Under the pieces are notes generated by a model. That model was given only the letters and a program-made list of their open reading frames with translations. It was not told the origin of the DNA and did no database searches. A stretch of DNA of 53,729 nucleotides from Nanobdellota archaeon (lineage in GTDB: Archaea; Nanobdellota; Nanobdellia; Woesearchaeales; GW2011-AR4): assembly GCA_022564635.1 (NCBI GenBank), contig JADFLA010000003.1, positions 1 to 53,729 of the forward strand, given 5' to 3'. This document shows, piece by piece, positions 21,500-45,118 of the stretch (its first letter is position 1; each line of letters opens with the position of its first letter). The translations under genes and the position numbers were made by a program.

Positions 21500-21614
21500 C
21501 GCCGCGACCCGGATTTGAACCGGGAAACCCTTGCGGGAACTGGCTCTCAAGGCGTACACTTTTAGGTCAATATTGGCCTAAAATCAGCGCAATGCCAGAT
21601 TATGCGATCGCGGC
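21500..21614 (-). tRNA. tRNA-Ser(UGA) with a 31-nt intron at 29/30 (21554-21584)
   Basis: Acceptor GCCGCGA/UCGCGGC, G73, long variable arm. Spliced stem CUGGC/GCCAG around CUUGAGA; 84-nt mature form. BHB helix GCGC/GUGU predicts both junctions. Confidence 0.9.
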
Positions 21615-21689
21615 AGTTGTGGTAGAACTATAGAAGTTTGTGATTTATTTAAAGTTATCTGGTATGAAAGGAATTTATTTCTTTGTACT

Positions 21690-23600
21690 TTATTTTTTTC
21701 TAAAAATTCTTCCAAACAATCCTTTCTTTTCTAATTGCTTTTCTTTCTCAAAAATATTACCTAGCTCTCTTACTTGCCTCTCTAAGTCCTCGTATCCTTG
21801 CTCTTCTTTTCTTTTATGTGTAGTTTTTCTTTCTGAGCTTTCTTTTTTTCTAAAAATCATTGATAAAAAATCCTTTATGTTATGTCTTTCCCTATCAATT
21901 ATATCCACTTTCGATTCTATTTTCTTTATATATTCCTGTTTATCTATATCTCCACCTTTTTCTCTCTTGAATATAATTAATATAACCAAAACAAAAATTA
22001 TGGCTGCGATATAAGCGATTATCACAAATGCTTTGATTGGTTTTTCTTCCTCAAGTTTTATTTCTGTTACAGATATATCTTCTTCTGTTTCTTTTTTCTC
22101 TGTCTCATCAATTGCTCGAGTTATTTCTGTTTCTAAACTAACTTCCTGTTGTTGTTCTTCAATTTCTTCTTTAGCTTCTTGCTGTTCCTCTATTTCTTCT
22201 ATAGTTTCCTGCTCCTCTTCTGGTTTTTCTTCTATCTTAGGAACTTCAATTATTATATTGTCTCTCACAATAAAAACTTGGTTGCTTGATTCATAAGCAG
22301 ATTCTAAATTGAGATGATAAATTTCATTTAATGGTGGGGTTATAATGGAAGAATCGAAAATCTTAATGGTTTCAAGAGGTTTTATTTCAGAGTATGCTGT
22401 TGAATGATCCTGAATATTTGGGATATTTGTAAAGTAGTTTATCTTAACATTTCGAAACCTATGAACTCTGCTTGGATTAATAAGGAATGCACTAAGACGT
22501 ACCCTTTGCTCAGGCACAGCAATTTGTTGAGAAAAATCATGAATGATGTATGGGCAATCACAGTAAACCTCTATGTTAGCGCTTTCTTCAGCTTTTCTCA
22601 AGAATTTTTCTATTTTATAGCTTGCTTCTGTCAGAACAGAGTAGTTGCCAGTTCTTTGGCCTTGAAGTTTTATTGCTAAATCCTTATTTTCTTCTGGAGC
22701 AAGAGTACCGCTCCAGGTGATTATCTTATTGTTAATAGTTGCATCTTTAGGTTTTTTTATGAGTAAAAGTTTTCCAGGCAGCTTTATTTTTAATGCTGTT
22801 ACAGTTAGATCATATTGGTCATTTATATTTTTAAGATTAATTGTTAGATCTAGTTCTTCTCCAATATCAAATTTGCTTTTATCTAGTTTAGGGGTTATTT
22901 TCAATGAATAATTATATACCTTAGCACTTATTGTGCTTGAGGTCGTATTTATCTGCTCTATTCCATCAAAAAAAAAGATACTAGCAGTTAATTCAAAATC
23001 ATCTGGACTTAAACCCTGTATCTTATAAGTGCATTTCTTTATCTGTTTTGGATGTATGTCCTCCTGGAATACAATAGTATCAAATATCTTTTTACATCCT
23101 TCTACATCTGTAACTAAAATAGAGGAAGGGACGTCAATTGTTGCGGTAACATCCTCTGCGACAATATCGGCAGTATTTTCTATCGATAGCTCTGCAGTTG
23201 TCTCTTCATTTAATAAAATATTATTTTGTTTAATTGTATTTTTTATATCCAGTTTTGATTTTATTTGATATACTTTTACATTTGTCTTATATACATCATA
23301 ATATCCTGTAAGGTTTCTGTAAGAAAAAGAAATATTACTTATGCATATATCAAAATTACCCTTTATTTCACATCCTCCGCTTTCTATTATAATCCCAGAA
23401 ATATCTATTTCTATGTATACTTTGTTACTTCCTGAGACTATCCTGAATTCAAAAAGGCTGTCAGCTATCTCAATAATATCTCCATCTTCAACTGTTCCTG
23501 AATAAACAAGTTCCTCATAAATAGAGAAGGAATTAGGCATTAAAATGAGTATAAATATTATAAGTAATACAAAAAATATGCCTCTTTTTTTCATTCTCAC
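21690..23600 (-). CDS. Membrane-anchored surface protein with Ig-like/CARDB-like domains
   Basis: N-terminal signal peptide, beta-rich domains, Glu-rich spacer, one TM (FVIIAYIAAIIFVLVILII), charged cytoplasmic tail. Confidence 0.7.
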   Translation of the reverse strand: MRMKKRGIFFVLLIIFILILMPNSFSIYEELVYSGTVEDGDIIEIADSLFEFRIVSGSNKVYIEIDISGIIIESGGCEIKGNFDICISNISFSYRNLTGYYDVYKTNVKVYQIKSKLDIKNTIKQNNILLNEETTAELSIENTADIVAEDVTATIDVPSSILVTDVEGCKKIFDTIVFQEDIHPKQIKKCTYKIQGLSPDDFELTASIFFFDGIEQINTTSSTISAKVYNYSLKITPKLDKSKFDIGEELDLTINLKNINDQYDLTVTALKIKLPGKLLLIKKPKDATINNKIITWSGTLAPEENKDLAIKLQGQRTGNYSVLTEASYKIEKFLRKAEESANIEVYCDCPYIIHDFSQQIAVPEQRVRLSAFLINPSRVHRFRNVKINYFTNIPNIQDHSTAYSEIKPLETIKIFDSSIITPPLNEIYHLNLESAYESSNQVFIVRDNIIIEVPKIEEKPEEEQETIEEIEEQQEAKEEIEEQQQEVSLETEITRAIDETEKKETEEDISVTEIKLEEEKPIKAFVIIAYIAAIIFVLVILIIFKREKGGDIDKQEYIKKIESKVDIIDRERHNIKDFLSMIFRKKESSERKTTHKRKEEQGYEDLERQVRELGNIFEKEKQLEKKGLFGRIFRKK

Positions 23601-23647
23601 AAGAAAATTAATTTAATAATTATTTTTTTATTGTTTCTTATTATCAA

Positions 23648-24709
23648 TTATTTTTTTTCTTCTTCATATATTTCAATGAAAGTTACAAGCATTGCAAGTA
23701 TTATAGGACCAATTATTATTCCTACAAAGCCAAGAAATTTTAAACCACCAACAACTCCGAGCAAGACAAGCACAGGATGTAAACCTCCTTTGCTACCTAT
23801 TATTTTTGGTTTCAATATATTATCTATTGTTCCTACAACAAATATTCCATAAAGCATAAACAGTATCCCTTTTATCATTAGAGTAGTTTCTGAATTAAGA
23901 TAGCCATTAAATATTAGTATTAAAGAGGCTGGAAACCAAATAATAGAGGATCCTACGTATGGAATCAAAGATGCGAACATCATGACTATGCCCCATAATA
24001 GAGGAGATGGCAGCCCAAATACAAAAAATCCAAGACCACCTAAAGTTCCTTGAATTATTGCAATTATTATGCTTCCATAAATTACTGCATAAGTCATATT
24101 ATTTAATTTTTTGAAAACATATTTTCTGTATTTGCTTTTTAATGGCATAATGCGCTCAACTTTATCGATAAAAATTTCTCCATCTCTAAAAAGGAAAAAC
24201 ATAACAAACAGTACAATGAACATGTCCAGAATAAATATTGGAACTGAAAATAGTATATTTGAAATGCTGCCAGTTATTTTTGTGGTAATGCCTTTAATGG
24301 TTGTATCAAAATAATATTTTGTTTGAGGGTCATTTATTTTATCAGAAACAAAATTTGAGATCTTACATACAGTTTTGTCTGCTGGTGTGCATTCTGTCAG
24401 GAATTGTCCACTAGCAAGTTTCTGTTTCGATAATAAATAAGTTGTATAAGCTTCTTTGGATAGGGTGTTAAGTACGAAAAATAAAGGCAAGGTTATTATT
24501 AAAATAACTAAGATGGAAGTAATTAAGGAAGAAATGTTCTTATTTCTAATTTTTTTATAAATTCTTGAATATAAGGGGTGGAATATATAGGAAAAAATTA
24601 TTCCAGTAAGCACAGCGGTAAGAAATGGTTTTATGATTAAAAATGATACTAGAATTAGAACTAAAAAAATCAGTGTAAAAAAGATCTTGCGGTATATTTC
24701 TGAATCCAT
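23648..24709 (-). CDS. AI-2E family (UPF0118) transporter
   Basis: IIAIIQGTLGG, LIPYVGS, DNILKPKIIG and GIIIGP motifs. Start MDSEIY at 24709, because the longer track ORF runs through tRNA-Val. Confidence 0.92.
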   Translation of the reverse strand: MDSEIYRKIFFTLIFLVLILVSFLIIKPFLTAVLTGIIFSYIFHPLYSRIYKKIRNKNISSLITSILVILIITLPLFFVLNTLSKEAYTTYLLSKQKLASGQFLTECTPADKTVCKISNFVSDKINDPQTKYYFDTTIKGITTKITGSISNILFSVPIFILDMFIVLFVMFFLFRDGEIFIDKVERIMPLKSKYRKYVFKKLNNMTYAVIYGSIIIAIIQGTLGGLGFFVFGLPSPLLWGIVMMFASLIPYVGSSIIWFPASLILIFNGYLNSETTLMIKGILFMLYGIFVVGTIDNILKPKIIGSKGGLHPVLVLLGVVGGLKFLGFVGIIIGPIILAMLVTFIEIYEEEKK

Positions 24710-24732
24710 TTTCTTGAGATTTGTATTCTGAA

Positions 24733-24899
24733 TGGGCCCGAAGGGACTCCCAAATCCCGACCTGCATGGTCTGGGATATTCGAACCCTTGATCTCCGCCA
24801 ATTCGATACCTTTCTAATGATTTATTTAATGTCGAGGCGACGTCATAGCTCCTAGTAGCGAGCGAAGCTACGCTTCGCATATCACTAGACTACAGGCCC
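24733..24899 (-). tRNA. tRNA-Val(GAC) with three introns: 18/19 (24850-24882), 37/38 (24801-24829), 59/60 (24747-24778)
   Basis: Removing 33+29+32 nt gives a 73-nt cloverleaf GGGCCUG UA GUCU AGUGGCUA UGAC G UCGCC UCGACAU GGCGG AGAUC AAGGG UUCGAAU CCCUU CGGGCCC A. Each intron has a 4-bp BHB helix. Confidence 0.88.
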
Positions 24900-24957
24900 A
24901 TAAATATGGGTTAAGAGTAGAGGATATAAAAATATTGCTATTAACTCAAAAATAACG

Positions 24958-25043
24958 GAGAACACAAATAATAGATTAAAATAGTTTGTGTTCTCTAACA
25001 TAGTGGCGGAATAATTATGTTCAATTATTTAGTTCCGCCACTA
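24958..25043. repeat. Two adjacent 11-bp inverted-repeat hairpins
   Basis: GAGAACACAAA(24958)/TTTGTGTTCTC(24995) and TAGTGGCGGAA(25001)/TTCCGCCACTA(25043). Confidence 0.7.
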
Positions 25044-25123
25044 AAAATCCAAAAATTTAAAAACATTCAATGTAAAGACTATACAATAGTTCAAAAATTT
25101 CATTTTTAAAAAGAGGGTGTTTT

Positions 25124-25396
25124 ATGAGACAAACCAAGAGTTGTGCATGTTTGATAGGCGCGGCTGCAAGAGATTTAGAAATATCAAAAAGAAAATCTAT
25201 GTTGAGGATAGAAGAAATAAACAAAAAGCTTAAGACTTCTAAAGATACAAAGAAAATAATAAAGTTGAAGGATAAAAAAAGGGAAATCATGAAGGCTATA
25301 AAAGAAACCACCAAGCATAAAATGAATGTAAAAAAACTATTTGATGAGCATATTAAAAAGAGTGGTTATGTGCCACCAAAATATAAAGGTAGGTAA
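25124..25396 (+). CDS. Small Lys-rich hypothetical protein (90 aa)
   Basis: GAGGGTG SD; first gene of the plus-strand signalling cluster. Confidence 0.6.
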   Translation: MRQTKSCACLIGAAARDLEISKRKSMLRIEEINKKLKTSKDTKKIIKLKDKKREIMKAIKETTKHKMNVKKLFDEHIKKSGYVPPKYKGR

Positions 25397-25400
25397 TATA

Positions 25401-25730
25401 ATGCATACTAATCAAAAAATTTTAAAGAATTTTTTTGATACTATAATAAGAATAGTTTCTCAGGGAACTTCTGATACATATGCTACAATGATATTAATGA
25501 AATTTAATAAAGAAAATACTTCAGATTTTCCTTTTGTTAAGTATATAAATTTGTATTCAAAGAAAATGGAAATAAATCAAAAAATCAATTCTGTTAATTC
25601 AAAACTTGTTGCAAAATACATTACAAAATTAGTAAATTCTATTTTTTCCGATTTGTTCAAGCACTTGCTTAAAAAAAATATGAGTTTAGAATTACTTAAA
25701 GATTTTAAAAAATTAGGAGTTAAAATTTGA
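25401..25730 (+). CDS. Unknown ~110-aa protein, paralogue 1 of 3
   Basis: Ungapped similarity to 29304 and 43826 ORFs (TNQ..FF..TS..Y..F.F.K.I..IN..LL..LG). Start reassigned to ATG 25401. Confidence 0.75.
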   Translation: MHTNQKILKNFFDTIIRIVSQGTSDTYATMILMKFNKENTSDFPFVKYINLYSKKMEINQKINSVNSKLVAKYITKLVNSIFSDLFKHLLKKNMSLELLKDFKKLGVKI

Positions 25731-25868
25731 TAAATGCTTCATTATACATAAATTTTTATATTAAAGAATTCATAATAATTAAAATGTGGTATTTTGCACA
25801 AAAAAGGGCAGCGGAAATTAAAAATTTCCTGGTCTTTTTTTATTAAAAATAAAAAAAGGTGAATAAAA

Positions 25869-27074
25869 ATGAGTTTGGATTTGAATACTGGAATTGGTGT
25901 AAGTGTTTTAACGGATTCTTATAAGGCTGGTGCTGAGGCAGCTGGAAAAGCACTTAAAGAACTTGGCCAAAAAAAAGCTGATGTGTTAATGGTGTTTGCT
26001 GCGCCAAAATTTAAGCAGCAGAAGATGGTGAATGGTATAAAATCTGTAACAAAAAATATACCAATGATAGGCGGGACAACTGCTGGAGAAATATCTACAC
26101 AAGGATTAAGTGTAAAATCAGTTGTTGTTATGGCTATTAACTCGAAAGACATAGAATTCTATGTTGGTCAAGGTAAAAATATAGCTAAGAATGAGGTTAA
26201 TGCTGGTAAGCAGTTGGCAAAAAACGTCCTTAAGAAAGCATCCAAGAAAAATGCCAATACATTAGTAATGCTGCCAGATGGATTAGCTGGAGATGGGTTG
26301 GCCGTTATACAAGGAGCACAAAAAGTTTTGGGAGAGAGCTTTGAGATTGTTGGTGGATCTTTAGGGGATGAATCCGATTTTAAACATACATATCAATATT
26401 ATAATGGAAAAGTCTATGATAATACTGTTGTGGGAATGTTAATTTGTGGTGGTAAAAAAATAAAAACAGCAACCGGAGTTAGAAGCGGATGGGAGTCAAT
26501 TGGTAATAGATTTAAATCCACAAAATCAAAAGGCAATGTTGTGTATAAGTTTGGAAACAAAAAAGCATTGGATTTTTATAGGGAGTTACTGGGTAAGGAA
26601 AGAGGAAAGAAATTACCGGCAATTGGCTTAGAGTATCCTATGGGACTAATTGATGAAAGAGCTAAGATAGAAGGCTATGATTATTTCCAGATAAGATGTC
26701 CGGTTGGGATAGATGAAAAAGCAGGTAGTGTTACTTTTGCAGCATCTATACCTGAGGGCAAGGAAGTAACATTGACATATTCTTCTAGGTCGACAATAAT
26801 TAACGGCTCTAAGCTTTCAGCTATGCAAGCTAAAAAAACCTTAAAGGGAAAAGCAAGGTTAATTATGATGTTCAGTTGTGTAGCTAGAAAAATGGTGCTA
26901 GGGAGAAGAACAAATGAAGAGGTGAATTTAGTTAAAAGTGTTTTTGGAAAAAATGTACCAATTGTTGGTTTTTACACTTATGGAGAAATAGGACCTATTG
27001 ACAAAAGAGTTCCTACATTAAGAAACACAAGATGGCATAATGAAACTGTTGTACTATATGTATTGGGAGAATAG
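25869..27074 (+). CDS. FIST signal transduction protein (FIST_N + FIST_C)
   Basis: GGTTAGEI, GGSLGD, SCVAR, GFYTYGEI and HNET motifs; AGGTGA SD. Confidence 0.92.
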   Translation: MSLDLNTGIGVSVLTDSYKAGAEAAGKALKELGQKKADVLMVFAAPKFKQQKMVNGIKSVTKNIPMIGGTTAGEISTQGLSVKSVVVMAINSKDIEFYVGQGKNIAKNEVNAGKQLAKNVLKKASKKNANTLVMLPDGLAGDGLAVIQGAQKVLGESFEIVGGSLGDESDFKHTYQYYNGKVYDNTVVGMLICGGKKIKTATGVRSGWESIGNRFKSTKSKGNVVYKFGNKKALDFYRELLGKERGKKLPAIGLEYPMGLIDERAKIEGYDYFQIRCPVGIDEKAGSVTFAASIPEGKEVTLTYSSRSTIINGSKLSAMQAKKTLKGKARLIMMFSCVARKMVLGRRTNEEVNLVKSVFGKNVPIVGFYTYGEIGPIDKRVPTLRNTRWHNETVVLYVLGE

Positions 27075-27197
27075 ATTTGAAAACCTTGATTATAGATTAA
27101 AAGGGATTATTGCGGTTTTTTGGGTTCAATAATAAGCAAAATTATAGCTGATTAATATTTCTCATTTTTCTTTTTTAAATTTAAGTAAAAGACTAAG

Positions 27198-28928
27198 ATG
27201 AAAAAAATAAGAGGGAAATTAAGAAAAGATAAGGTAAAAGCAACAGTTAAAACAAGTGGTTATATTACTGAACGCAAGGAAGCAGAGAGAGCATTGCGGA
27301 AGAGTGAGGAAAAATATATATCAATTACAGAATCAGTTCCCCTTGGGATAGAGGAAATAGATACTAATGGAATAATAACTTTTTCTAATTCAGCGCAACA
27401 CAAAATGTATGGTTATGCTAAAGGAAAATTGATAGGAAGATCAATACTTGATTTTGTTCCTGGTCCTGAGAAAGAAAAGTTGCGCAAGTATCTGAAGTTT
27501 TTGGTGGAGAAACAGCCTAAACCTGTTCCCTATTTTGGAAAGAAAATAACAAAAAAAGGAAAAATTATAGATGTTCAAGTGTCTTGGAATTACAAGCGTG
27601 ACAAAGAAGGACGCGTCATAGGTTTCAATTCTGTCATTACAGATATCACTAAACGGAAAAAAGCAGAGGAAAAACTACTACAACAAGCTGTTTTTATGAA
27701 AAACAATCCGGCCCCTGTTCTTAGAATGGGGTATGACGGTAAGATTATTGAAATTAATCCGGCAGCTAAAAAATTGTTTAAAAAAGACTTAGTGGGTATA
27801 TCGATACATAATATTTTTTCTTATATTAGCAAATCTGTAATTGCAAGCTTACTTATGGTAGACACGTTTCAATTTGAACAAAGAATTGGTAAAGAAACTT
27901 TCTCATTTATATTAAATAGAGATGAGCCAACACATTCATACTGTTTTTATGGTAGTGAAGTTACAGAGAGAGAAAAATCAGCAGAAATGTTAAAAGAACA
28001 AAATAAAGATCTTTTGAGAAAAAGTATGGATTTAACGGAACTTGGAGGACAGCTTGAGGACAGGAATTATGAATTAGAATCTGCAATTAAGAGTATAAAT
28101 AAACAAAATAAAGATCTTGTAAAAACGTCTATGGCTTTAACAGAACTCAGAGGACAGCTTGAGGACAAGAATTATGAATTACAACAAGCAAATAAAGAAA
28201 TTTTGAGCCTTATGGAGGCTAGGACCGATTTTATTAATAAAGCTGCTCATGATTTAAGAACACCTATTACCCCAATATTAGTCCTGCTTCCAACAATTAA
28301 AAAACGCATAAAGGATATTGGAGTTTTATTTGATCTAAAGGTTATTGAAAGAAATGCAAATTATTTGAAAAACATAGCAGACAATCTTATTAGCTACTTA
28401 AAATCGAATACTCAAAAATACGATTATAATTTCAAAAAAACTGATATAAGAGAATTAATAGAAGATGTGCTCATAACTTATAGGGAGGTATTCAAACAAC
28501 GCAAAATATCTATAATAAAAAAATTTTCCGGAAATCTTCCTCTTATTAAATTAGATGGACTTAAGATTACAGAGGTACTTCAAAACATTGTTTCAAATTC
28601 AATAAAGTTTATGCCTAGAGTAGGAAAATTAACTATTAGTGTAAAAAAAATGGATAATTTTATAAATATTAGATTTAAAGATACTGGTATTGGAATTAAA
28701 AAAGAAAATTTAGAGGAGATATTTATAGAATTTTTTAAAGCTGATGTGTCCAGACATACTGCAGGTGAGGGACTTGGTCTTTCAATATGCAAAGGAATTA
28801 TAGAGGACCATCATGGCAAAATATGGGCTGAAAGTAAGGGTCTAGGAAAAGGAACCACAGTATCTTTTAATATTCCAATAACACAAAAAAAGGTGAAGTT
28901 ATATGAAAAACAAACCGAAGAAAAATAA
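27198..28928 (+). CDS. Cytoplasmic PAS-PAS histidine kinase
   Basis: PAS/PAC (DITKRKKAEE), HisKA AAHDLRTP, N box NIVSNSIKF, DTGIGI, GEGLGL; no TM. Confidence 0.93.
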   Translation: MKKIRGKLRKDKVKATVKTSGYITERKEAERALRKSEEKYISITESVPLGIEEIDTNGIITFSNSAQHKMYGYAKGKLIGRSILDFVPGPEKEKLRKYLKFLVEKQPKPVPYFGKKITKKGKIIDVQVSWNYKRDKEGRVIGFNSVITDITKRKKAEEKLLQQAVFMKNNPAPVLRMGYDGKIIEINPAAKKLFKKDLVGISIHNIFSYISKSVIASLLMVDTFQFEQRIGKETFSFILNRDEPTHSYCFYGSEVTEREKSAEMLKEQNKDLLRKSMDLTELGGQLEDRNYELESAIKSINKQNKDLVKTSMALTELRGQLEDKNYELQQANKEILSLMEARTDFINKAAHDLRTPITPILVLLPTIKKRIKDIGVLFDLKVIERNANYLKNIADNLISYLKSNTQKYDYNFKKTDIRELIEDVLITYREVFKQRKISIIKKFSGNLPLIKLDGLKITEVLQNIVSNSIKFMPRVGKLTISVKKMDNFINIRFKDTGIGIKKENLEEIFIEFFKADVSRHTAGEGLGLSICKGIIEDHHGKIWAESKGLGKGTTVSFNIPITQKKVKLYEKQTEEK

Positions 28929-29648: not shown

Positions 29649-29671
29649 ATAATAATAAAAAAGAACGGATA

Positions 29672-29831: not shown

Positions 29832-29836
29832 GGGAG

Positions 29837-30217: not shown

Positions 30218-30244
30218 ATAGGAGTAATAATTGGGTAAGATAAA

Positions 30245-31015: not shown

Positions 31016-31062
31016 ATTTGATATTTTTTCTATTTATATTATGAACCTATACCTCCTTCTAA

Positions 31063-32589: not shown

Positions 32590-35500
32590 TTATTTTGTAA
32601 ATTTATCTGCTGTTTTTCTTTCATAATACAAATCCTTAATATGAGGATAAATTCTTACTTTGTTTTTCTGATCTAATCCATTATACATGCTCATAATTTC
32701 TATGTAGATTCTTTTTGCATCATTAAATTTAAAGTCCATCAATGCAAGCCTTGCTTTGTGTATTTTCTCTTTTATTGCATTAATACTGTCTGTTTTTACT
32801 TTTGCTTTTTTTACTTCTGGTTTGAGTTTTACTGGAGGTATTTTAATATGTTCAACTGCTTTTCCCTTTCTCTTGAATAAATCCCCTATGACAGAAAACC
32901 TTTTCTTTTCCTCTCTTTTCTTCTCAAGCTTTTTCTGGTGTTCTCTTTCTTTTTCTTCATGTTTTTCTTTTAATTCTTCTTGTATTTCTTTCTCTTTTCT
33001 TATCCTTTCCTCGTCTTTCCTTCTTTTTTCTAACTCTTTTTGTCTTTGTTTTCTAAATTCTTTTCTTCTCTTTTCTTCCCTTAACCTTTCCTTTCTCTCT
33101 TTTTCCGGTAATTTTTCCTCTTCTAGTAATTGAGAAGGTGCTTGTGGGGTTGATAATTCTATAGACTCGGTTTTCCTCAATTTTATCTGCATTTCTTCCT
33201 TCTTTTGTTTTTTTAGTAATTTCAATGGCCTTATTTCTTCCATTATTTTTATTAAATTTTCAAAAAATAAACTTATTCTAGAAATTATTACTGTTTTTTT
33301 ATGCTCCTTTGCTTTTTCTTTTGGTTTCTCTTTTTTGGGTTTTAATTTAATTCCAAACAAACTTAAAAATTTTAACCTTCTTTCTTTCCTTATAGCAGCT
33401 TCGGCCTCTTTTAATATTATCTTTCCCTCTACCTCACTTAACTTAGTAGAATAGTTGTGTATCTTCCTCTTGTATACCCCAGTTTCCTGTTGTCCTTTTA
33501 CGATGTATTCATCCTGTGTTTGTTTTATTAAATCAAGCAATCTTTTACGTTCTAGAGACAATCTATGAAGAGCAGGTCTTACCAAAGAGGCTTTTAGGCT
33601 TTCTAATTCTAATATTTTTTGAATAACATCGCTTAGTTTCTTTTCATATTGTAGCATTGTTATGTTATACTGCGCCATATCTATTGTCTTTTTTTCAAAA
33701 CATTCACGCTGTGCAGTCTGCATTAAACCCCTTAAAATTCCTCTTTCCTTGAGTGAATTTCTCAGATCATAATTTATTTTTTCAATCTTTATTTTGAAGA
33801 ATATACTCAGAGCAAAAATTAGAATGTAAAATGCCATAAAGCTTGCTAATAGACGATTTCTTTTGATAAAATCCAATATAGAAAACTTACCTTTTGTTTC
33901 CAAGGCGAATGTTAGCTCAATTTCCTTGAGCCTTGCAAAAGCAGTGAAGTAATCTTCTCTTTCTAACGCTGATAGGGTAAGCGAAACTAATCTTTGTGTA
34001 TCTGGAGTTTCTATCCCTCTCTCTTTGGCCTTAGCAATTTTAACAGTAAATTCCTGTATTTTTTCATATGCTTGTAAAGCTCTTGCAACCTTTTCTTTTA
34101 TTAAATCATGCAGTTCTTGAACAGCTTCATAGTCTGTAGCCTTTAATTTATCTTTACTGTCAGCTAAAAGTTTTCTTAGTTTTTTAGTACTTAAATTTAG
34201 ATCCTCTAATATAATAATTTCATTTAAACTTAAATTTATAAGCTTAGCAGCATCTTCCCTACTTAACTCATGAATGGCAAGCAATACTTTTCTTTTTTCT
34301 GAAAAATGTATTGTTTGCGTTGAGTTTGTTTCAGCAAATTTCTTAATATATATTGCATCTATTGTAAAATATAAAGTCCACTCTCCTTTGGTAAAGTATC
34401 TTGGAGCAGTAATACGAATTATCACGTTAGCAGAGCTGTTAGGAGCAATTTCTGAAGGTATGTTAGTTAGTTCAATATATTGGGCTAAAAATCCTGTAAC
34501 AGCAACACTAATATTCTGTAGAGGCCAATCGAAATCATTATTTATAGGCAAGATAAAGTCTTCATCTTCCCCTCTAACAAGTTCGTATACTGCTTCTGTT
34601 TCAATCTCTTGTTCTTGAATGAGACCAGCTCCGATTCCTCCTCCTCCACCACCACCACCTCCACCACCACCACCTCCGCTTACAACTGTTGTTATGGTTA
34701 TGGTAGTAGCAGCTGTTGATGTTTCTGTAACAACTATAGAAGCTGCTGCACTACCACTTCCGCTGTTATTTGATGCTGCTGTTACATTTACCTTTTGAGT
34801 CCCTGTAGCAGCATTAGAAGTAAGATTTACAGTTATGTTATGATAAACTATCTCTTGAACTGAAACATTGGTAAAATTCTGATTTAATCTTCCTGTAATA
34901 TTGTTCCATTCACTTGGTAATGTCCAATTTACATAGGTAAAGCCTGCTGTTTCATTACCTATATTTTTTATTGAAGCATTTAAATGATGCACTCCAGGAT
35001 CGCTTTTGTTGGCTTCTGTTGGAGGATTTATTATAGTAACATCAAAAACAGGACCTCCTAGAAATACAGTTATTTTAGCCGAGGTTATTTCTGAATCTGG
35101 AACTGCGTCAGTTGTTGTGGCATCTATTGTTAACTCGGCATCAAATACACTTGTAGTTGTCCCTGCATCTGCAGTTACTTCAACAACTTCATAATCTTTA
35201 GCAGCTAAATCAAATGGTTCTGTTTTATTAAAGGAAGTACCCGTAAAACGGGATGATAAATCAAAGGTCAATAGGGAATCTCCTGAATTGTTTATGGTTA
35301 AATTTCCAATGGAACATGTTGTAGAAACTGGACAAGCTATAGCAGTAAATTTATTAGGTATCCTATTCCATGTAAGCTCTTGTTCTACAGAAATATTTGT
35401 AATTTTTGAAGTAGCGTTAAATCCTACATGATCAGTTACATTAATGAAATAACTCCAATTACCGGTTTCATCTGGTGTAAACGAAGTATTAAATAATCCA

Positions 35501-39128: not shown

Positions 39129-39163
39129 TATTGTATATTATTATACTTTTTATATATAAATAT

Positions 39164-39201
39164 TGCGAATATTGATACTAATATTAATACTAATATTCGC
39201 A
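39164..39201. promoter_or_regulatory. Candidate operator next to the TATA box (39149-39160)
   Basis: 10-bp inverted repeat TGCGAATATT...AATATTCGCA enclosing two direct ATACTAATATT repeats. Confidence 0.55.
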
Positions 39202-39410
39202 CTTAGAAAACTAGTTTTTTTGTGTTATGAGTACAATCTTTATTTTGTCGAAACATATATAAAACAAATCATTAAGAAAAGGATTGAATAGAATGTATAA
39301 AAATTAAATTTAGACTCAGATGAGGATATCATAGAAATTTGCCTAACTCTGGATTAACATCTGGAGTTTGATTTATAATTTTATTTTAGAGGCAAATTTC
39401 TAGGACACTG

Positions 39411-39460
39411 AGAAATGCCAAAGGCATTTCTGGTGTGCCAAAAATTGCAAAGCAATTTTT
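39411..39460. repeat. REP-like tandem palindromes with C-AAA-G centre, cluster 1
   Basis: AGAAATGCC-AAA-GGCATTTCT and AAAAATTGC-AAA-GCAATTTTT. Confidence 0.75.
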
Positions 39461-39608
39461 AAGTATGCCAAAAATAGATAACTCATAGGTACAATTTTTC
39501 GCTCTGTATTCCGCTTCACTACATCCCGAGTTATCTATTTTTGTGCATATTCCCGTAGAAAGTTTTAAATAGAAATATTATAAGGTTATAGTAAAAGAGA
39601 GTGGTCTT

Positions 39609-40145
39609 ATGAATATTGAAGAAGAAATTATAAAAAATCAGTCGATATTGGTCTTAATTGCGAAATCTGAATATCCAAGTAAACATATGGAAATAGTAGG
39701 ATTATTGGACAAAAATTTCAAAAAAATAGGTTATGTTTACCTCAAAAAATCCTACAAAACTCTTAAAAAAAAATTAACTAAAAACAAAGTTAACTTTAAC
39801 AAGTTTTTATTTATAGGCCTAAATAAACCTACTAAAGAACAGCTTAAAGCAGAATATTATAGTTATATTACTTCGCCTGCAGATTTTGGAGGAATAAACA
39901 TAGCTTTATCTGATTTGGTGTATAGGGGATGTAAAAGTTTTTTATTTGATTCTTTATCTAATATGATTGCTCATGTTAAGAGAGATAAATTGCTCAAATT
40001 TATAAATACAATAATTATTAAAACAAAAGTTGCTAATGCTAATGTTATTTTTTTAGCTTTAAGTGAAAATATTGACTCTAATTTGTTTAATGATTTAAAT
40101 ATGGTTTTTGATAAAATTATTGTGACTCCAACAGATAATAAATAA
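39609..40145 (+). CDS. Degenerate RecA/KaiC-fold protein without Walker A (DUF835-like)
   Basis: YVYLKK, SPADF and FLFDSLSNM pattern; paralogue of 5454-6005. Confidence 0.6.
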   Translation: MNIEEEIIKNQSILVLIAKSEYPSKHMEIVGLLDKNFKKIGYVYLKKSYKTLKKKLTKNKVNFNKFLFIGLNKPTKEQLKAEYYSYITSPADFGGINIALSDLVYRGCKSFLFDSLSNMIAHVKRDKLLKFINTIIIKTKVANANVIFLALSENIDSNLFNDLNMVFDKIIVTPTDNK

Positions 40146-40184
40146 AACAAAGAGAGTATTAAAGGGATAGCATAAAAAATAAAA

Positions 40185-43100
40185 TTGATGAATGGGATAT
40201 TTAGCATATTCAAAAAAGAGAAACCAGAAGTTAAAGAAACAGAAATTAGAGTAGCTGATGGGATAATTGATTATGCTGTTAGTTTGATAAAAGATAAGGA
40301 AAGTATCAAAGAACAGCTTAAAGAAATTGATAAAATAAGAAAACTTCCTGTTGACGAAAGAGAATATTCTTACCTGCTGGTGTATCTCAGCTTAGAAAGA
40401 GTTATTTTAGCAAAAAAGCCTGCACCTACTAAAGAATATTTTTCACGAAAGATTTTAAAAAAGCCAAAAGAATTTACGCAAGATGGTTTAAGAAGAACTA
40501 TAAGAAAAAAATTTGAAATAAATAAACTAGGGGTATATTTTAGAGTTCTATTTCTTAATGAACCTCAGCAAAGTTTAATTCTATATGAGCTAATGTTTCA
40601 GGAATTTATGGATTTAATATCTGATAAAATTAAAAAAAAAATTCCTGATGTTATTTTAAAAGAAAACTATGATGTTCTTAATGGCACTAAAATAGAAAAT
40701 GGAAAGATGGATTTATCATCTGTAAATGAGAAAATTGAAGAAAAACAAGTGAATGTTGAAGATATAATAATCCCTTTTAAAAATTTATTCTTTGTATTTT
40801 ATAGCAATGTAGTTAAAAGTGACGGCAAAGAGTTAGCTGATAAACTTGTGATGGATGTTTACAATTTTGTAGAAATTTACGGTCATCCTCTAACCTCGGC
40901 TGCAATTCAAATTTTGCCCAAGATAACATCTAAAGAAACAAAAGCAGCAGCTGCTCATAGGATTGTGGATTATTTAAGCATGCTAATTTTAAGAAAAGAC
41001 CTGATAAAGCCTCAAATTGATAAAATAGCGGATGCTGAAACACTTCCAGAAGAAGGTAAAGAAAAAGTCTATTTTAGTATTTATCTTGAACTGGAAAAAT
41101 TTATGATTGACCATTTACCTCCTGCTGTAGAAAAATCATTTACCAGAGAAGAGTTAAGAAAAGAAATAAGGGAAAAGATTAATACTCAAAATTTGGAGCA
41201 TAGATTTAAGTTACTATTTTTAGGAGAAAAAGAGCAATTAATTGAGTTATTTAATATGTTTTATGGGTTGCTTTTAGAACAGATGGTTTCATTTTGGGCA
41301 GCAGGTGATTTACAAAAATTTGTCAGCGAAAATGTAAAAGGAACAATGCTTGATAGTCTTGGATTTACTATTGAGAAAAAAGAAATTGGTTTTGATGTTT
41401 CTGAAACAAATATCGATACTTTACCAAAGAATAAACTAAAAGATGTTATTCATGATTTGTCTGCATTTCTTCTTGTTTTGTATAAAAATGCAAAAGAGAC
41501 AGGTGGTGAGAAAAAGGCAGAAAAGGCAATTAGCAAGGCCTATAAAATAATGAAAGAACAATATGGCATGCTTCCTATTTTTAATGATTTTGTTAGAGCA
41601 ATTCCAGAAGGCGTGTTAGACTATGAGAATAAGATTTTATTATCACCCAGAGCAGCGGAAGAGGTTGTAACCTATATAACTAAAATTCTAAAAAAAGAAA
41701 AAATAGAAGAGCATTTAAAGGCCATGGAAGAAACAAGGAAATTACCTTTGGAAGAACAGGCAGAAGCTTTCTTTAATATTTATATTAATTTACAGCATTA
41801 CATTATTGAAGAAAGACCTTCTTTTAAAGGAAAAGAGATAACCTTGTCAGATTTAAAGGAAAAAATAAGAAGACATGTAAATGTCAAAGATTTAGAGGAC
41901 AAATTTCAACTACTATTTTTAACGCATGACGAAGTACTTGTTAAACTTGTGAGAGACCTAATTAAAGAATGTATTGTTAATTTTATTGATAAAAAAGCTT
42001 TGGTAGAAGCTGTAAAAGATCTTACAAAAAAAAACTCTTTTTTAAGGAATGTGGAAATTGATGAAGAAGGCTTAATTGATTTTGAACCGTTTTTTGATAA
42101 GCTTAAAAAAGTTGAGGTTGCGAAAGTTAGAGTTCTTAGCATTACTTTATCTAAGATCGTATTAGCAATATATGAAAAATCTAAAGAAATTTTAGGAGAG
42201 TTACAAGCTAAAAAACTTTTTGAGATTGCTTATGCAAATCTGCAAAAAAAATATGGTGCAAATTTATTGCAGGTATTAAGAGTTATTCCCAAAGGAATAC
42301 TGGAAGCTGAGAAATTTGAGTTACTCGGTAAAGAGGAAATAGAAAAAACTGCCAAAGAAATGGTAAAAATAGACACTATAAAAGGAGAGTTTATGAATAT
42401 CGCAGCACATGAACTAAAAACACCTCTTGTGCCAATTATTAGCTATCTAGAGATGCTACTTAATGATAAAAGGCTAGCGAGGGATCAGAAAGAAAAGCTA
42501 AGAATATGCTTATCCTCTGCAAAGAGAGAAGCTGATTTAGTAAGTGATATACTTGATATAAGCAAGTTAGAGGCAGGATCATTAAAGTTAGAGTTTGAAA
42601 CACTTGACATGGTAGAGCTTTTAAAAGAAATTACAGATGGTTTAGGTCCTGCTATAAGGGGGAAAAAACTGGCATTTAAAGTAGAAGTACCATCTAAACT
42701 TCCACTTGTTAGAGGGGATAAGAGAAGACTTACACAAGTAGTATCCAACTTAATTAATAATGCTACAAAATTTACAGATAAAGGGAGTATAACTGTTAGA
42801 GCTCAGATGGAAAAACAAAATATACTTGTTAGTGTAATAGACACAGGAATGGGCATTAGTAAAGAAAATATACATAAGTTATTTACAAAATTTTTTCAAG
42901 TTGATAGCACTGCTAGGAGAAAACAGGGTGGAACAGGCTTAGGATTAGCAATTTCCAAAGGGATTATTCAAGGGCATAAAGGCAAACTATGGGTTGAAAG
43001 TGATGGTATAGGAAAAGGCACTACTTTTTCTTTTACAGTGCCATACCTTCCTACAACAGAAAAAGAAAAAATGGAAACACAAAGAGAACAAAACTCTTTT

Positions 43101-43235
43101 GTTTCCCAGGAACCAAAGGTGAAAACAGAAAAAGTTATAAAGAACAAAGCTAAGGAAAAGAAGAAAGAGAAGGATAAGGTTAGAAAGTCTAGGCATAAAA
43201 AATCATCAATAATTAAAAACACGCGAAAATCGTAG
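40185..43235 (+). CDS. Cytoplasmic histidine kinase with three tandem ~230-aa unknown N-terminal repeats
   Basis: HisKA AAHELKTP, NLINNATKF, DTGMGI, FFQV, GTGLGL. Repeats start near 40254, 40953 and 41655. No TM. Confidence 0.92.
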   Translation: MMNGIFSIFKKEKPEVKETEIRVADGIIDYAVSLIKDKESIKEQLKEIDKIRKLPVDEREYSYLLVYLSLERVILAKKPAPTKEYFSRKILKKPKEFTQDGLRRTIRKKFEINKLGVYFRVLFLNEPQQSLILYELMFQEFMDLISDKIKKKIPDVILKENYDVLNGTKIENGKMDLSSVNEKIEEKQVNVEDIIIPFKNLFFVFYSNVVKSDGKELADKLVMDVYNFVEIYGHPLTSAAIQILPKITSKETKAAAAHRIVDYLSMLILRKDLIKPQIDKIADAETLPEEGKEKVYFSIYLELEKFMIDHLPPAVEKSFTREELRKEIREKINTQNLEHRFKLLFLGEKEQLIELFNMFYGLLLEQMVSFWAAGDLQKFVSENVKGTMLDSLGFTIEKKEIGFDVSETNIDTLPKNKLKDVIHDLSAFLLVLYKNAKETGGEKKAEKAISKAYKIMKEQYGMLPIFNDFVRAIPEGVLDYENKILLSPRAAEEVVTYITKILKKEKIEEHLKAMEETRKLPLEEQAEAFFNIYINLQHYIIEERPSFKGKEITLSDLKEKIRRHVNVKDLEDKFQLLFLTHDEVLVKLVRDLIKECIVNFIDKKALVEAVKDLTKKNSFLRNVEIDEEGLIDFEPFFDKLKKVEVAKVRVLSITLSKIVLAIYEKSKEILGELQAKKLFEIAYANLQKKYGANLLQVLRVIPKGILEAEKFELLGKEEIEKTAKEMVKIDTIKGEFMNIAAHELKTPLVPIISYLEMLLNDKRLARDQKEKLRICLSSAKREADLVSDILDISKLEAGSLKLEFETLDMVELLKEITDGLGPAIRGKKLAFKVEVPSKLPLVRGDKRRLTQVVSNLINNATKFTDKGSITVRAQMEKQNILVSVIDTGMGISKENIHKLFTKFFQVDSTARRKQGGTGLGLAISKGIIQGHKGKLWVESDGIGKGTTFSFTVPYLPTTEKEKMETQREQNSFVSQEPKVKTEKVIKNKAKEKKKEKDKVRKSRHKKSSIIKNTRKS

Positions 43236-43250
43236 ACTTTCGGTGAACTG

Positions 43251-43328
43251 GGAAATTTCAAAGAAATTTCCGGTTTCCCAAAAATTGCAAAGCAATTTTT
43301 TAGGATCCTGAAAATGCAAAGCATTTTC
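43251..43328. repeat. REP-like tandem palindromes with C-AAA-G centre, cluster 2
   Basis: GGAAATTTC-AAA-GAAATTTCC, AAAAATTGC-AAA-GCAATTTTT (identical to 39440-39460) and GAAAATGC-AAA-GCATTTTC. Confidence 0.75.
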
Positions 43329-43447
43329 ATGACAATAAAGTTCAAAAACATAATAATAATTGATTGATTAACTTTTTGTATTATTAAAGATTATACCACA
43401 ACAAATAATAAAAAATTAAATCAAACAAATTTTAAGAATTTATAATA

Positions 43448-43822
43448 ATGGTAAAAAAATCAATAATGATAGTTGATGACGAACCAATGATCGTAAAAGT
43501 AGTAAAAGATATTTTTAAAGAGGAAGGTTATAAGGTAATTACAGCATTAAGTGGCCAAGAATGTCTTGAAAAATTGAAAAATACAAGTGTAGATCTAATT
43601 TTGCTTGATATAATGATGCCGGGTATGGATGGCTGGGATACGTGCGCTAAAATCAAAAGCGATAAAAAAACAGAAAAGATACCTATAGTTTTCTTAACAG
43701 CAAAAACTGATCCGGTAAGCAGGAGTATGGGCGGGCTTGCATCTACAGCTTATATAACCAAGCCATTTGATATGAAAGATTTGAAAAAAAGAGTTGATTC
43801 TGTTATCAAAGCTAGCAAATAA
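43448..43822 (+). CDS. Stand-alone response regulator receiver (REC2)
   Basis: VDDEP, DLILLDIMMP, FLTAK and KPF motifs. Confidence 0.95.
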   Translation: MVKKSIMIVDDEPMIVKVVKDIFKEEGYKVITALSGQECLEKLKNTSVDLILLDIMMPGMDGWDTCAKIKSDKKTEKIPIVFLTAKTDPVSRSMGGLASTAYITKPFDMKDLKKRVDSVIKASK

Positions 43823-43825
43823 GAA

Positions 43826-44164
43826 ATGGTAGATATGACAAATCAGATTGTGACTAAGGATTTTTTTGAGAAAACTATTAATATTATAGCTCAAAATACT
43901 TCTTTTAGTTATAGTACAATTGCTTTAAACGGTATTAAAATGCAACTAAGTAAAGAATTTAATTTCTTAAAAGATATTCATATAAAAGGAAAATCGGTAG
44001 ATGTTGATAAAACTATAAATAATATTGGAAAAAATGAATTGAGAAATTTTTTTAGAAAAGTAATTGATATGGTAGGGCCTAATTACTTAAAAATACTTTT
44101 GGCCCAAAAACTCAATCCTAAATCATTGATGTATTTAGAAAATATTGGGTTAAGGTTTGGTTAA
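43826..44164 (+). CDS. Unknown ~110-aa protein, paralogue 3 of 3
   Basis: Directly follows REC2; close homologue of 29304-29648. Confidence 0.8.
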   Translation: MVDMTNQIVTKDFFEKTINIIAQNTSFSYSTIALNGIKMQLSKEFNFLKDIHIKGKSVDVDKTINNIGKNELRNFFRKVIDMVGPNYLKILLAQKLNPKSLMYLENIGLRFG

Positions 44165-44575
44165 ATGGCAATAAAAATATTTTCCTGGATTGTATATGTA
44201 TTGTTTTTTCTTATTTTAATGAATTTTGTATCAGCCCAATCAGAGATAATTAATCTTAATAATCTAAAAAATATTGCAATTCCTATACACTTGTTTGAGC
44301 TGGTTTTAGCACTTTTTATTGCATTCATGTCTTTGAAATTTTTTAGAATAACTAAACCTATTAGTTTATTTTTATTTATATATGTTGCTGTAGGTTTCTT
44401 TATTATTAATTCATTGCTCTACTTATTTTTTTATTTGAGTATAGATACCAGATTAGAGATGGTTTTTGTAAATGTGCATATAGGAAGTAGGGTTGCATTG
44501 ATGGGGATGTTAATATCATTTGTAATCTTTTTCTATCAGTGGAATAAGATTATGAGAAGAACGGATATTAAGTAG
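44165..44575 (+). CDS. Hypothetical membrane protein (4 hydrophobic helices)
   Basis: Abuts the previous stop codon. Confidence 0.7.
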   Translation: MAIKIFSWIVYVLFFLILMNFVSAQSEIINLNNLKNIAIPIHLFELVLALFIAFMSLKFFRITKPISLFLFIYVAVGFFIINSLLYLFFYLSIDTRLEMVFVNVHIGSRVALMGMLISFVIFFYQWNKIMRRTDIK

Positions 44576-44740
44576 ATATTAATATACTTCTAAACAAAAC
44601 TTCTAATTGATTGCCCTAATGGGCTAAAGAAGAATAAAAAGAAGGCAGTTACTAATCCAAAGATTGCTAATATTACTTCTTGTATTATCTGGTGGAATCT
44701 TGTAAAGTCCCTTGTCGTTGATCGTTTAAGATTAAGAAAA

Positions 44741-44902
44741 AGCCTCTGGGGAGAATTGCACTCCCGACCTTTGCCTATTTGGACTGACGTCCTAATCCTT
44801 CAAGCAAAGCTTGAAGTTACCAAGGCTTTACGGAATTGAAGAAACCCTTCAAATCTAACGCAATTTGTAGGACATAAAGCCTAACTACTATGCTACAGAG
44901 GC
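44741..44902 (-). tRNA. tRNA-Thr(GGU) with three introns: end of D-loop before A21 (44865-44882), 28/29 (44827-44856), 37/38 (44777-44817)
   Basis: Removing 18+30+41 nt gives 73 nt: GCCUCUG UA GCAU AGUAGUUA UUGC G UUGCC UUGGUAA GGCAA AGGUC GGGAG UGCAAUU CUCCC CAGAGGC U. BHB helices GUAG/CUAC, UGCG/CGUA and UUGG/CCAA. Confidence 0.85.
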
Positions 44903-44973
44903 ATTAAATAAATTAAAAACAACGAATTATTGTTTGATATTTAAAAATTGCTAAAAATTATAAGAATAAAAAA

Positions 44974-45118
44974 TGCGAGGGAGGGGATTCGAACCCCCGG
45001 ATCCACTAAGGAACAGGATATCTTCCTTACATCAGAAGTGTTCCGTTATGGAATAGTTCTGGTCTTAAGTTTCGCACTAAATAGACCTGCGCGTTTAACC
45101 AGGCTTCGCTACCCTCGC
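44974..45118 (-). tRNA. tRNA-Leu(UAA) with two introns: 30/31 (45071-45085) and 37/38 (45020-45063)
   Basis: Removing 15+44 nt gives an 86-nt type II cloverleaf with CAGGA CUUAAGA UCCUG and A73. The first intron has a perfect CGCA/UGCG central helix. Confidence 0.87.

What the first reader, a model, noticed from the sequence alone, without database searches (positions are those of the whole stretch)
21500..45118. Heavy tRNA intron load: nine introns in four of five tRNAs, at seven positions
Seen: introns at 18/19, the end of the D-loop, 28/29, 29/30, 30/31, 37/38 (three times) and 59/60, 15-44 nt long. Applying the BHB rule (cut after the second nt of each bulge) yields exact cloverleaves. 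Known: multi-intron and non-canonical-site tRNAs are typical of Thermoproteales and some ARMAN archaea and need relaxed-specificity splicing endonucleases. Inference: an active intron-gain regime in this lineage, with ordered splicing; standard scans may miss these genes.
Basis: partly seen in the sequence, partly recalled or inferred. Interest (0 to 1): 0.75.

Follow-up and report, generated by a model that had tools for sequence, protein, structure and literature searches.

The report
Four multi-intron tRNA genes, Woesearchaeota
Four of the five tRNA genes in this stretch of a tiny uncultured archaeon (Woesearchaeota) are broken up by nine short protein-spliced introns at seven different positions, a known kind of oddity that here occurs with a cutting enzyme of the type thought unable to handle such introns.

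Summary
On the minus strand lie tRNA-Ser(UGA), tRNA-Val(GAC), tRNA-Thr(GGU) and tRNA-Leu(UAA). They carry nine introns of 15-44 nt at 18/19, 20/21, 28/29, 29/30, 30/31, 37/38 (three times) and 59/60. tRNA-His has no intron.

I did not rely on the bulge-helix-bulge (BHB) rule to place the boundaries, because permissive BHB trimming produces many false cloverleaves. The same four tRNAs in up to 11 congeneric genomes lack or carry each intron at the same junction. The 4-bp central helix is then present in 8 of 9 introns (chance P about 1e-12).

Standard scans find only tRNA-His cleanly. The whole genome yields 12 Rfam tRNA hits.

The organism is a Woesearchaeota (DPANN) genome assembled from a metagenome. 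It has RtcB ligase and one 191-aa EndA of alpha4 architecture. That EndA lacks all three loops (CSL, ASL, NEQ loop) held to confer relaxed specificity.

A 2018 paper already links DPANN alpha4 EndAs to disrupted tRNA genes, so this is a new member of a known kind.

Intron turnover is shown. The direction of change (gain or loss) and ordered splicing are not shown. No RNA data could be obtained.

The parts
21500..21614 (-). tRNA-Ser(UGA) gene, 115-nt precursor and 84-nt mature. Class II, with variable arm CCC-GCAA-GGG.
   Evidence: Found by the acceptor plus T-arm scan. ARAGORN calls Ser-tga after intron removal. Orthologues occur in 9 congeners.
21554..21584 (-). 31-nt intron at 29/30, inside the anticodon stem. 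Central helix GCGC/GUGU, bulges UG|A and AC|G, and a 7-bp inner hairpin. No contiguous outer helix, so the motif is relaxed.
   Evidence: G005 has the uninterrupted stem, and G003 and G001 carry an intron at the same site.
24733..24899 (-). tRNA-Val(GAC) gene, 167-nt precursor and 73-nt mature. The anticodon loop UCGACAU has C33.
   Evidence: Orthologues occur in 10 congeners.
24850..24882 (-). 33-nt D-loop intron between G18 and G19. Central helix CUAG/CUAG. Holds a 7-bp GC-rich hairpin, GCGAAGC/GCUUCGC.
   Evidence: G002, G009 and G010 read AGTGGCTA without an intron. Eight genomes have a 15-52-nt intron at the same place.
24801..24829 (-). 29-nt canonical 37/38 intron. This is the only motif with all three helices contiguous (outer 5, central 4, inner 2 bp).
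   Evidence: An intron is present at this site in all 11 orthologues.
24747..24778 (-). 32-nt T-loop intron at 59/60. Central helix UUCG/UGGG (three G-U pairs); the outer helix is the T-stem.
   Evidence: Absent in G011, G012, G005 and G010; 35-154 nt long in the other congeners that have it.
44741..44902 (-). tRNA-Thr(GGU) gene, 162-nt precursor and 73-nt mature. The T-loop UGCAAUU has G55, and the D-loop has no GG.
   Evidence: Compensatory T-stem changes are seen across 9 genomes.
44865..44882 (-). 18-nt intron at 20/21, the end of the D-loop. Central helix GUAG/CUAC and a 3-bp inner helix.
   Evidence: G010 reads AGTAGTTATTGC with no intron. G005 has a 15-nt intron at the same place.
44827..44856 (-). 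30-nt intron at 28/29 in the anticodon stem. Central helix UGCG/CGUA.
   Evidence: G010 reads GCGTTGCCTTGG uninterrupted. G009, G001, G005 and G006 have an intron here.
44777..44817 (-). 41-nt intron at 37/38. Central helix UUGG/CCAA, no contiguous inner helix, and an internal 7-bp hairpin.
   Evidence: G005 reads GCCTTGGTAAGGCAA with no intron. The other congeners have 10-54-nt introns, and some of those sequences are unrelated to this one.
44974..45118 (-). tRNA-Leu(UAA) gene, 145-nt precursor and 86-nt mature. Class II. Lies 71 nt upstream of tRNA-Thr.
   Evidence: Rfam tRNA model at 37.8 bits with a 64-nt insert.
45071..45085 (-). 15-nt intron at 30/31 in the anticodon stem. Central helix CGCA/UGCG.
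   Evidence: G004, G011, G006, G008 and G002 read CGCGCAGGACTTAAG with no intron.
45020..45063 (-). 44-nt intron at 37/38. Central helix is 3/4 paired. The outer helix (anticodon stem) is complete only once the 30/31 intron is out.
47548..47618 (-). tRNA-His(GUG), without intron. This is the fifth tRNA of the window.

Best explanation
These are four working, single-copy tRNA genes of a Woesearchaeota (DPANN) archaeon. Each is interrupted by one to three archaeal bulge-helix-bulge (BHB) introns.

Shown:
- In every intron the two cut sites are separated by a 4-bp helix formed between exon sequence just upstream of the 5' site and intron sequence just upstream of the 3' site.
- Removing the nine segments gives cloverleaves whose exons are conserved across the genus.
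- The genome encodes the splicing endonuclease EndA and the ligase RtcB.

Inferred:
- The precursor folds so that each pair of sites sits in or near 3-nt bulges.
- EndA cuts after the second bulge nucleotide on each strand, leaving a 2',3'-cyclic phosphate and a 5'-OH. RtcB then joins the exons.
- Because this genus has only one EndA gene, with an N-terminal and a catalytic domain (191 aa), the enzyme is most likely an alpha4 homotetramer. It must accept motifs at many positions, most of them with weak or displaced outer or inner helices.

The introns are evolutionarily labile. Congeners differ in which of the shared sites are occupied, in intron length and sometimes in intron sequence.
For: - Boundaries are fixed by comparison with intron-less orthologues.
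- The central helix is 4/4 paired in 8 of 9 introns and 3/4 in the ninth, against a 2.4% background (P about 1e-12).
- ARAGORN calls the trimmed sequences as full-length Ser, Val, Thr and Leu.
- There is no other copy of these tRNAs in the assembly.
- All four lie between genes, with T-runs downstream. The 410-aa ORF that overlaps tRNA-Val has its plausible start after the tRNA.
- EndA is a single gene with both Pfam domains. Each of the 10 congeners with a hit also has exactly one such gene.
- RtcB is present.
- tRNAs are scarce genome-wide and genus-wide under standard models: 12 hits in this genome and 6-21 in congeners.
- Of 15 genes with an intact acceptor stem and T-arm, 9 are over-long; a reversed-genome control gave 0 hits.
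Against: - There is no RNA evidence.
- Only one of the nine motifs is a textbook hBHBh'. Several have no contiguous outer or inner helix.
- The only EndA is of the type reported to cut strict motifs only (PMC3488258, PMC5829648).
- The assembly is 87% complete, so a second EndA subunit or an intron-free tRNA copy could in principle be missing.
Confidence: 0.9

Rival explanations
1. The cloverleaves are artefacts. With a relaxed BHB rule and up to three or four deletions, almost any GC-rich stretch can be trimmed into something a tRNA finder accepts.
For: My own permissive enumeration gave 63 (Val) and 29 (Leu) different full-length ARAGORN 'tRNAs' from the same precursors. They had anticodons for Pro, Ala, Asn, His and others.
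Against: The accepted solutions are the ones dictated by intron-less orthologues in other genomes, not by the trimming search. Exons are conserved while introns vary. The central-helix statistic is P about 1e-12. A reversed-genome control of the gene scan gave 0 hits.
Confidence: 0.02
2. These are decaying pseudogenes disrupted by insertions such as selfish GC-rich hairpin elements. The working tRNAs lie elsewhere or are supplied by a host.
For: Some introns carry GC-rich palindromic hairpins (Val 18/19, Thr 37/38). DPANN archaea depend on hosts. The assembly is 87% complete.
Against: Exon sequences, including compensatory stem changes, are kept across up to 11 divergent congeners (50-80% protein identity in the flanks). 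Every insertion sits so that a 4-bp helix links its two ends. No second copy exists in this or the related assemblies. EndA and RtcB are retained.
Confidence: 0.03
3. The introns are real but are cut by a heteromeric or otherwise unrecognised endonuclease. This could be a structural beta subunit too divergent to detect or lying in the missing 13% of the genome. In that case the enzyme would not be an alpha4 homotetramer.
For: The closest solved relative of the catalytic domain is the alpha subunit of the Nanoarchaeum equitans (alpha-beta)2 enzyme (E 4e-35). The C-terminal Trp typical of Crenarchaeota and Nanoarchaeum enzymes is conserved.
Against: Unlike NEQ205, this protein keeps its own N-terminal domain. 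phmmer and jackhmmer against all six-frame ORFs find no paralogue. Ten congeners, three of them at least 90% complete, each have exactly one hit.
Confidence: 0.12

Closest known systems
Multi-intron tRNA genes of Thermoproteales (Pyrobaculum, Thermofilum) and other Crenarchaeota, cut by (alpha-beta)2 EndA carrying the Crenarchaea-specific loop
   Same: Up to three BHB introns per gene. Sites lie in the D-loop, anticodon stem (28-31), 37/38 and the T-loop. The motifs are relaxed, and standard tRNA finders miss the genes.
   Different: The lineage is different (DPANN, 31% GC). There is one EndA gene rather than two. The 10-residue CSL insert is absent. No paralogous intron families within the genome point to transposition.
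ARMAN-2 (Candidatus Micrarchaeum acidiphilum) disrupted tRNAs with epsilon2 EndA (PMC3239211, PMC3488258)
   Same: An ultrasmall DPANN archaeon with non-canonical and multiple tRNA introns.
   Different: EndA here is 191 aa with two domains, not a 395-aa three-unit protein. It has neither the ASL nor the insert around the catalytic His.
DPANN alpha4-type EndAs 'harbouring the L3 loop' that are associated with increased tRNA gene disruption (Kaneta et al. 2018, PMC5829648, which included one Woesearchaeota MAG)
   Same: The same superphylum, the same alpha4 architecture and the same association with disrupted, incompletely predicted tRNA sets. This paper anticipates the phenomenon.
   Different: In this protein and in 80 Woesearchaeota/Nanoarchaeia homologues, the segment between the catalytic Tyr and His is 9 residues. 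That equals Methanocaldococcus jannaschii; Nanoarchaeum equitans has 15. By this measure the NEQ-type (L3) insert is absent. That paper gives no intron-by-intron account for Woesearchaeota in the text held here.
Methanocaldococcus jannaschii alpha4 EndA (PDB 1A79), the archetype of strict-BHB specificity
   Same: Same length and domain order. The catalytic Tyr, His and Lys align, with no gap longer than one residue.
   Different: Its host has essentially canonical introns only. The protein here has Trp where M. jannaschii has Tyr near the C-terminus, and a largely conserved Lys at the CSL/ASL site.

Membership tests
Archaeal BHB (protein-spliced) tRNA intron | Two cleavage sites separated by a 4-bp helix, each after the second nucleotide of a 3-nt bulge | tested here: met
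   The central helix is 4/4 paired in 8 introns and 3/4 in one, using boundaries fixed by orthologues. P is about 1e-12.
Archaeal BHB (protein-spliced) tRNA intron | Strict hBHBh' form: contiguous outer and inner helices of at least 2 bp closing both bulges | tested here: not met
   Only Val 37/38 qualifies (5/4/2 bp). The other eight lack a contiguous outer or inner helix or have G-U-rich helices, so they are relaxed forms.
Archaeal BHB (protein-spliced) tRNA intron | Removal restores a tRNA cloverleaf with a sensible anticodon | tested here: met
   ARAGORN calls Ser-tga, Val-gac, Thr-ggt and Leu-taa, all full length.
Archaeal BHB (protein-spliced) tRNA intron | Spliced product and excised intron exist as RNA | not testable with these tools
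Archaeal BHB (protein-spliced) tRNA intron | Splicing endonuclease and RtcB ligase are encoded | tested here: met
   EndA is at G000:C10 with PF02778 and PF01974. RtcB is at G000:C60.
alpha4-type EndA | One gene of about 180 aa with an N-terminal and a catalytic C-terminal domain, and no second subunit gene | tested here: met
   The protein is 191 aa with both domains. There is no paralogue in this genome, and each of the 10 congeners with a hit has exactly one.
alpha4-type EndA | Forms a homotetramer | not testable with these tools
   Oligomeric state needs biochemistry.
Broad-specificity EndA as currently defined (CSL/L1, ASL/L2 or NEQ loop/L3) | Carries one of the three specificity loops | tested here: not met
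   There is no 10-aa insert relative to S. tokodaii 2CV8 and no 6-aa insert relative to NEQ 3IEY_A. The length equals M. jannaschii 1A79. All 80 homologues have 9 residues between Tyr and His.

The most novel reading that the evidence does not exclude
A single-gene, alpha4-type EndA with none of the three known specificity loops is the sole splicing endonuclease of a whole Woesearchaeota clade. In that clade most tRNA genes carry relaxed BHB introns at many positions. If so, broad substrate range can be reached without CSL, ASL or the NEQ loop. Candidate means are the conserved C-terminal Trp and a Lys at the loop site. That would contradict the current loop-centred model of EndA specificity.
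Probability: 0.45. Interest if true: 0.65.

Novelty: new member of a known kind. Interest (0 to 1): 0.5.

Why it matters
The finding has a practical and a mechanistic side.

Practical: Woesearchaeota genomes assembled from metagenomes look as if they lack most tRNAs. This genome gives 12 Rfam hits and its congeners give 6-21. That can be misread as incompleteness or as dependence on a host. This window shows that the genes are present but hidden by introns.

Mechanistic: the lineage pairs a heavy load of relaxed, non-canonically placed introns with an EndA of the architecture regarded as strict and without any known specificity loop. Cutting these four precursors in vitro with the recombinant enzyme would be a clean test of the loop model.

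The genus-level differences in intron occupancy at fixed sites also give a data set for asking how BHB introns are gained and precisely lost.

Tried and rejected
- **Permissive BHB trimming scored by ARAGORN.** It gave dozens of mutually exclusive 'tRNAs' per locus. I rejected it as evidence and replaced it with comparison to orthologues.
- **A textbook BHB inside the Val D-loop intron.** This 24-nt candidate has helices of 4/4/7 bp. I rejected it as the splice pair because it leaves a 17-nt D-loop, whereas congeners without the intron read AGTGGCTA.
- **ARAGORN intron mode on the genome.** It mis-assigns Ser as Leu(tag) and Leu as Asn(att).
- **Search for paralogues of the nine introns in the genome.** None were found, so there is no support for recent transposition.
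- **Attempt to find the nearest congener, to tell gain from loss.** All congeners are about equally distant (about 45-73% average amino-acid identity in the flanking regions). The result was inconclusive.
- **Depth-3 genome-wide decomposition.** It timed out. The depth-2 run gives plausible but uncorroborated solutions for Gly, Glu, Cys, Lys and Met genes elsewhere.
- **Rfam at permissive thresholds on the GC-rich islands at 5165-5285 and 53196-53729.** Nothing credible was found.


Full report
**What standard tools see.** ARAGORN with default settings finds one tRNA in the window, tRNA-His at 47545-47618 on the minus strand. Rfam at its gathering thresholds finds the same gene plus archaeal RNase P RNA. 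With permissive filters the Rfam tRNA model also matches 44974-45118 (minus) at 37.8 bits, with a 64-nt insert. The window is 31% G+C, so structured RNA genes stand out as GC-rich islands.

**Locating the genes.** Reading the GC islands on the minus strand gave three candidates with intact acceptor stems and T-arms or recognisable pieces of them:
- 21614..21500 (115 nt)
- 24899..24733 (167 nt)
- 45118..44974 (145 nt)

The fourth, 44902..44741 (162 nt), lies 71 nt downstream of the third. It escaped my T-loop pattern because its T-loop reads UGCAAUU. Profile searches with 5' and 3' tRNA pieces find these five genes and nothing else.

**A caution about method.** I first trimmed candidate BHB introns recursively and asked ARAGORN to judge the products. 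This gave 63 different full-length 'tRNAs' for the Val locus and 29 for the Leu locus, with many different anticodons. So 'applying the BHB rule yields exact cloverleaves' is weak evidence by itself. Independent evidence was needed.

**Comparative evidence.** The window is contig C66 of a 1.43-Mb assembly that is 87% complete. BLAST of the four precursors against the 12 other genomes of the same genus found orthologues of each. Thr sits next to Leu in those loci. The orthologues keep the exons and differ in the introns.
- **Leu(UAA).** G004, G011, G006, G008 and G002 read CGCGCAGGACTTAAG. The window has a 15-nt insert between CAGG and A (30/31). All orthologues examined have an intron at 37/38.
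- **Thr(GGU).** G010 reads GCATAGTAGTTATTGCGTTGCCTTGGTAA. The window has 18 nt before the last D-loop A (20/21) and 30 nt between GCGTT and GCC (28/29). G005 reads GCCTTGGTAAGGCAA without the 37/38 intron.
- **Val(GAC).** G002, G009 and G010 read GTCTAGTGGCTATGAC. The window has 33 nt between the two D-loop Gs. G011, G012, G005 and G010 lack the T-loop intron.
- **Ser(UGA).** G005 has an uninterrupted anticodon arm. G003 and G001 share the 29/30 intron.

**The motif.** With boundaries fixed as above, I asked whether the BHB geometry holds. The geometry is: 4 nt upstream of each 3-nt 'bulge' pair with each other, and the cut falls after the second bulge nucleotide. The central helix is 4/4 paired in eight introns and 3/4 in Leu 37/38. 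In the same sequences a random pair of sites 15-44 nt apart gives 4/4 in 2.4% of cases, so P(>=8 of 9) is about 1e-12.

The flanking helices are much less regular. Only Val 37/38 has contiguous outer (5 bp) and inner (2 bp) helices. Ser 29/30, Val 18/19 and Thr 28/29 have no contiguous outer helix. Thr 37/38 has no contiguous inner helix. Val 59/60 has three G-U pairs in the central helix. In Leu and Thr the outer helix of the 37/38 motif is the anticodon stem, which is itself split by the stem intron.

Minimum-free-energy folds of the local regions often choose a neighbouring register, for example a 2-nt rather than a 3-nt bulge at Val 18/19. By the field's usual definitions most of these are relaxed motifs.

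**Products.** The trimmed sequences are 84, 73, 73 and 86 nt. ARAGORN calls them as full-length Ser-tga, Val-gac, Thr-ggt and Leu-taa. BLAST of the mature sequences against the whole assembly finds only these loci, plus different isoacceptors.

All four lie between genes. The long ORF that overlaps tRNA-Val has a plausible start (MDSEIYRK...) downstream of the tRNA.

**Genome and lineage.** The whole assembly gives 12 Rfam tRNA hits. Congeners give 6-21, and other genera of the order give 9-42. My scan for a 7-bp acceptor stem plus a canonical T-arm finds 15 genes, against 0 in the reversed-genome control. Nine of them are longer than a mature tRNA.

A depth-2 decomposition suggests introns in Gly, Glu, Cys, Lys and Met genes elsewhere, but this is not corroborated. 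Earlier first-reader notes on other windows of this genome report the same kind of thing. Neighbours of the EndA protein in public genomes are labelled Woesearchaeota, Nanoarchaeota or Nanoarchaeia.

**The enzymes.** One gene (G000:C10; L001 1474-2049, minus strand; 191 aa) carries the EndA N-terminal and catalytic domains.
- phmmer and jackhmmer against all six-frame ORFs find no paralogue.
- Ten congeners, three of them at least 90% complete, have exactly one hit each.
- The best solved relatives are the N. equitans alpha subunit (E 4e-35), M. kandleri and the M. jannaschii alpha4 enzyme.
- Against M. jannaschii there is no gap longer than one residue.
- Against S. tokodaii the 10-residue Crenarchaea-specific loop is missing.
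- Against N. equitans the 6-residue basic insert before the catalytic His is missing.
- Against ARMAN-2 both inserts are missing.
- In 80 homologues from Woesearchaeota and Nanoarchaeia genomes, the spacing between the catalytic Tyr and His is always 9 residues. That equals M. jannaschii; N. equitans has 15.
- The clade keeps a C-terminal Trp, as in the N. equitans and S. tokodaii enzymes aligned here, and a mostly conserved Lys at the loop site.

RtcB is present.

**Literature.** Reviews and primary papers state that alpha4 and alpha'2 enzymes cut only strict motifs, and that CSL or ASL confer broad specificity (PMC3488258; PMC5829648, abstract and introduction). Kaneta et al. 2018 (PMC5829648) already note alpha4 EndAs 'harbouring L3' in several DPANN lineages, associated with more disrupted tRNA genes. 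They also note incomplete tRNA sets that need manual curation, and one Woesearchaeota genome was in their set.

The phenomenon is therefore known in outline. What I add is the intron-by-intron proof for one genus, and the observation that by sequence alignment this clade's EndA has no NEQ-type insert.

**Evolution.** Occupancy of shared sites differs among congeners. At Thr 37/38 some genomes carry unrelated intron sequences. This shows turnover.

I could not decide between gain and loss because all congeners are about equally distant. None of the nine introns has a paralogue in the genome. 'Active intron gain' and 'ordered splicing' remain hypotheses.

**Limits.** No enzyme assay was possible. 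The assembly is incomplete.

Noticed in passing
window 24830-24836 (minus strand), and loci L018-L027: The anticodon loop of tRNA-Val(GAC) reads U32-C33-G34-A35-C36-A37-U38. It has C33 instead of the near-universal U33. The same CCTCGACA is present in all 11 orthologues of the genus.
   Followed up: partly
window 44753-44759 (minus strand), and loci L003-L015: tRNA-Thr(GGU) has the T-loop UGCAAUU, with G at position 55. Its D-loop, AGUAGUUA, lacks the GG pair. The pattern [U/C]GCA[A/C]NU is kept in 9 genomes, with compensatory T-stem changes. This is why T-loop-based searches miss the gene.
   Followed up: partly
loci L020, L023, L026, L034, L036, L039, L041, L048, L051, L052 (congeners): Long T-loop introns of about 84-154 nt occur in Val, Ser(UGA) and other Ser tRNA genes of congeners. 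They start ...TTCAAA|ACGATCTTTT... and end ...GATGAAAG|TCC, and they contain GC-rich hairpins. They look like one intron family spread over several tRNA genes and genomes. None is in this window.
   Followed up: no
loci L003, L004, L006, L013 (congeners): tRNA-Leu(UAA) of G010, G009, G005 and G004 has a further intron of about 31 nt right after the acceptor stem (about 8/9). This site is not occupied in the window.
   Followed up: no
window 5165-5285: A GC-rich (about 60%) structured island lies in AT-rich surroundings. Its minimum free energy is -47 kcal/mol (z = -2.3), and it contains nested GC hairpins. It has no Rfam match and no tRNA features.
   Followed up: partly
window 53196-53729: The last 530 bases of the contig are about 60% G+C, against 31% for the rest. 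They seem to encode unrelated small proteins. This is probably a chimeric contig end or foreign DNA.
   Followed up: no
window 49861-50289 (minus strand): The archaeal RNase P RNA is 429 nt against a 288-position model. It has three large inserts (47, 72 and about 30 nt).
   Followed up: no
G000:C60:973-2318: The first 30 positions of the RtcB match lie in a separate short frame that has a TAG stop. They sit just upstream of the main 445-aa frame. This could be a frameshift, a sequencing error or an odd start.
   Followed up: no
window 34602-34707: A GC-rich run of repeated CCTCCACCACCA-like triplets sits inside a long reading frame (low-complexity Gly-rich if read on the minus strand). It is not an RNA gene.
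   Followed up: no
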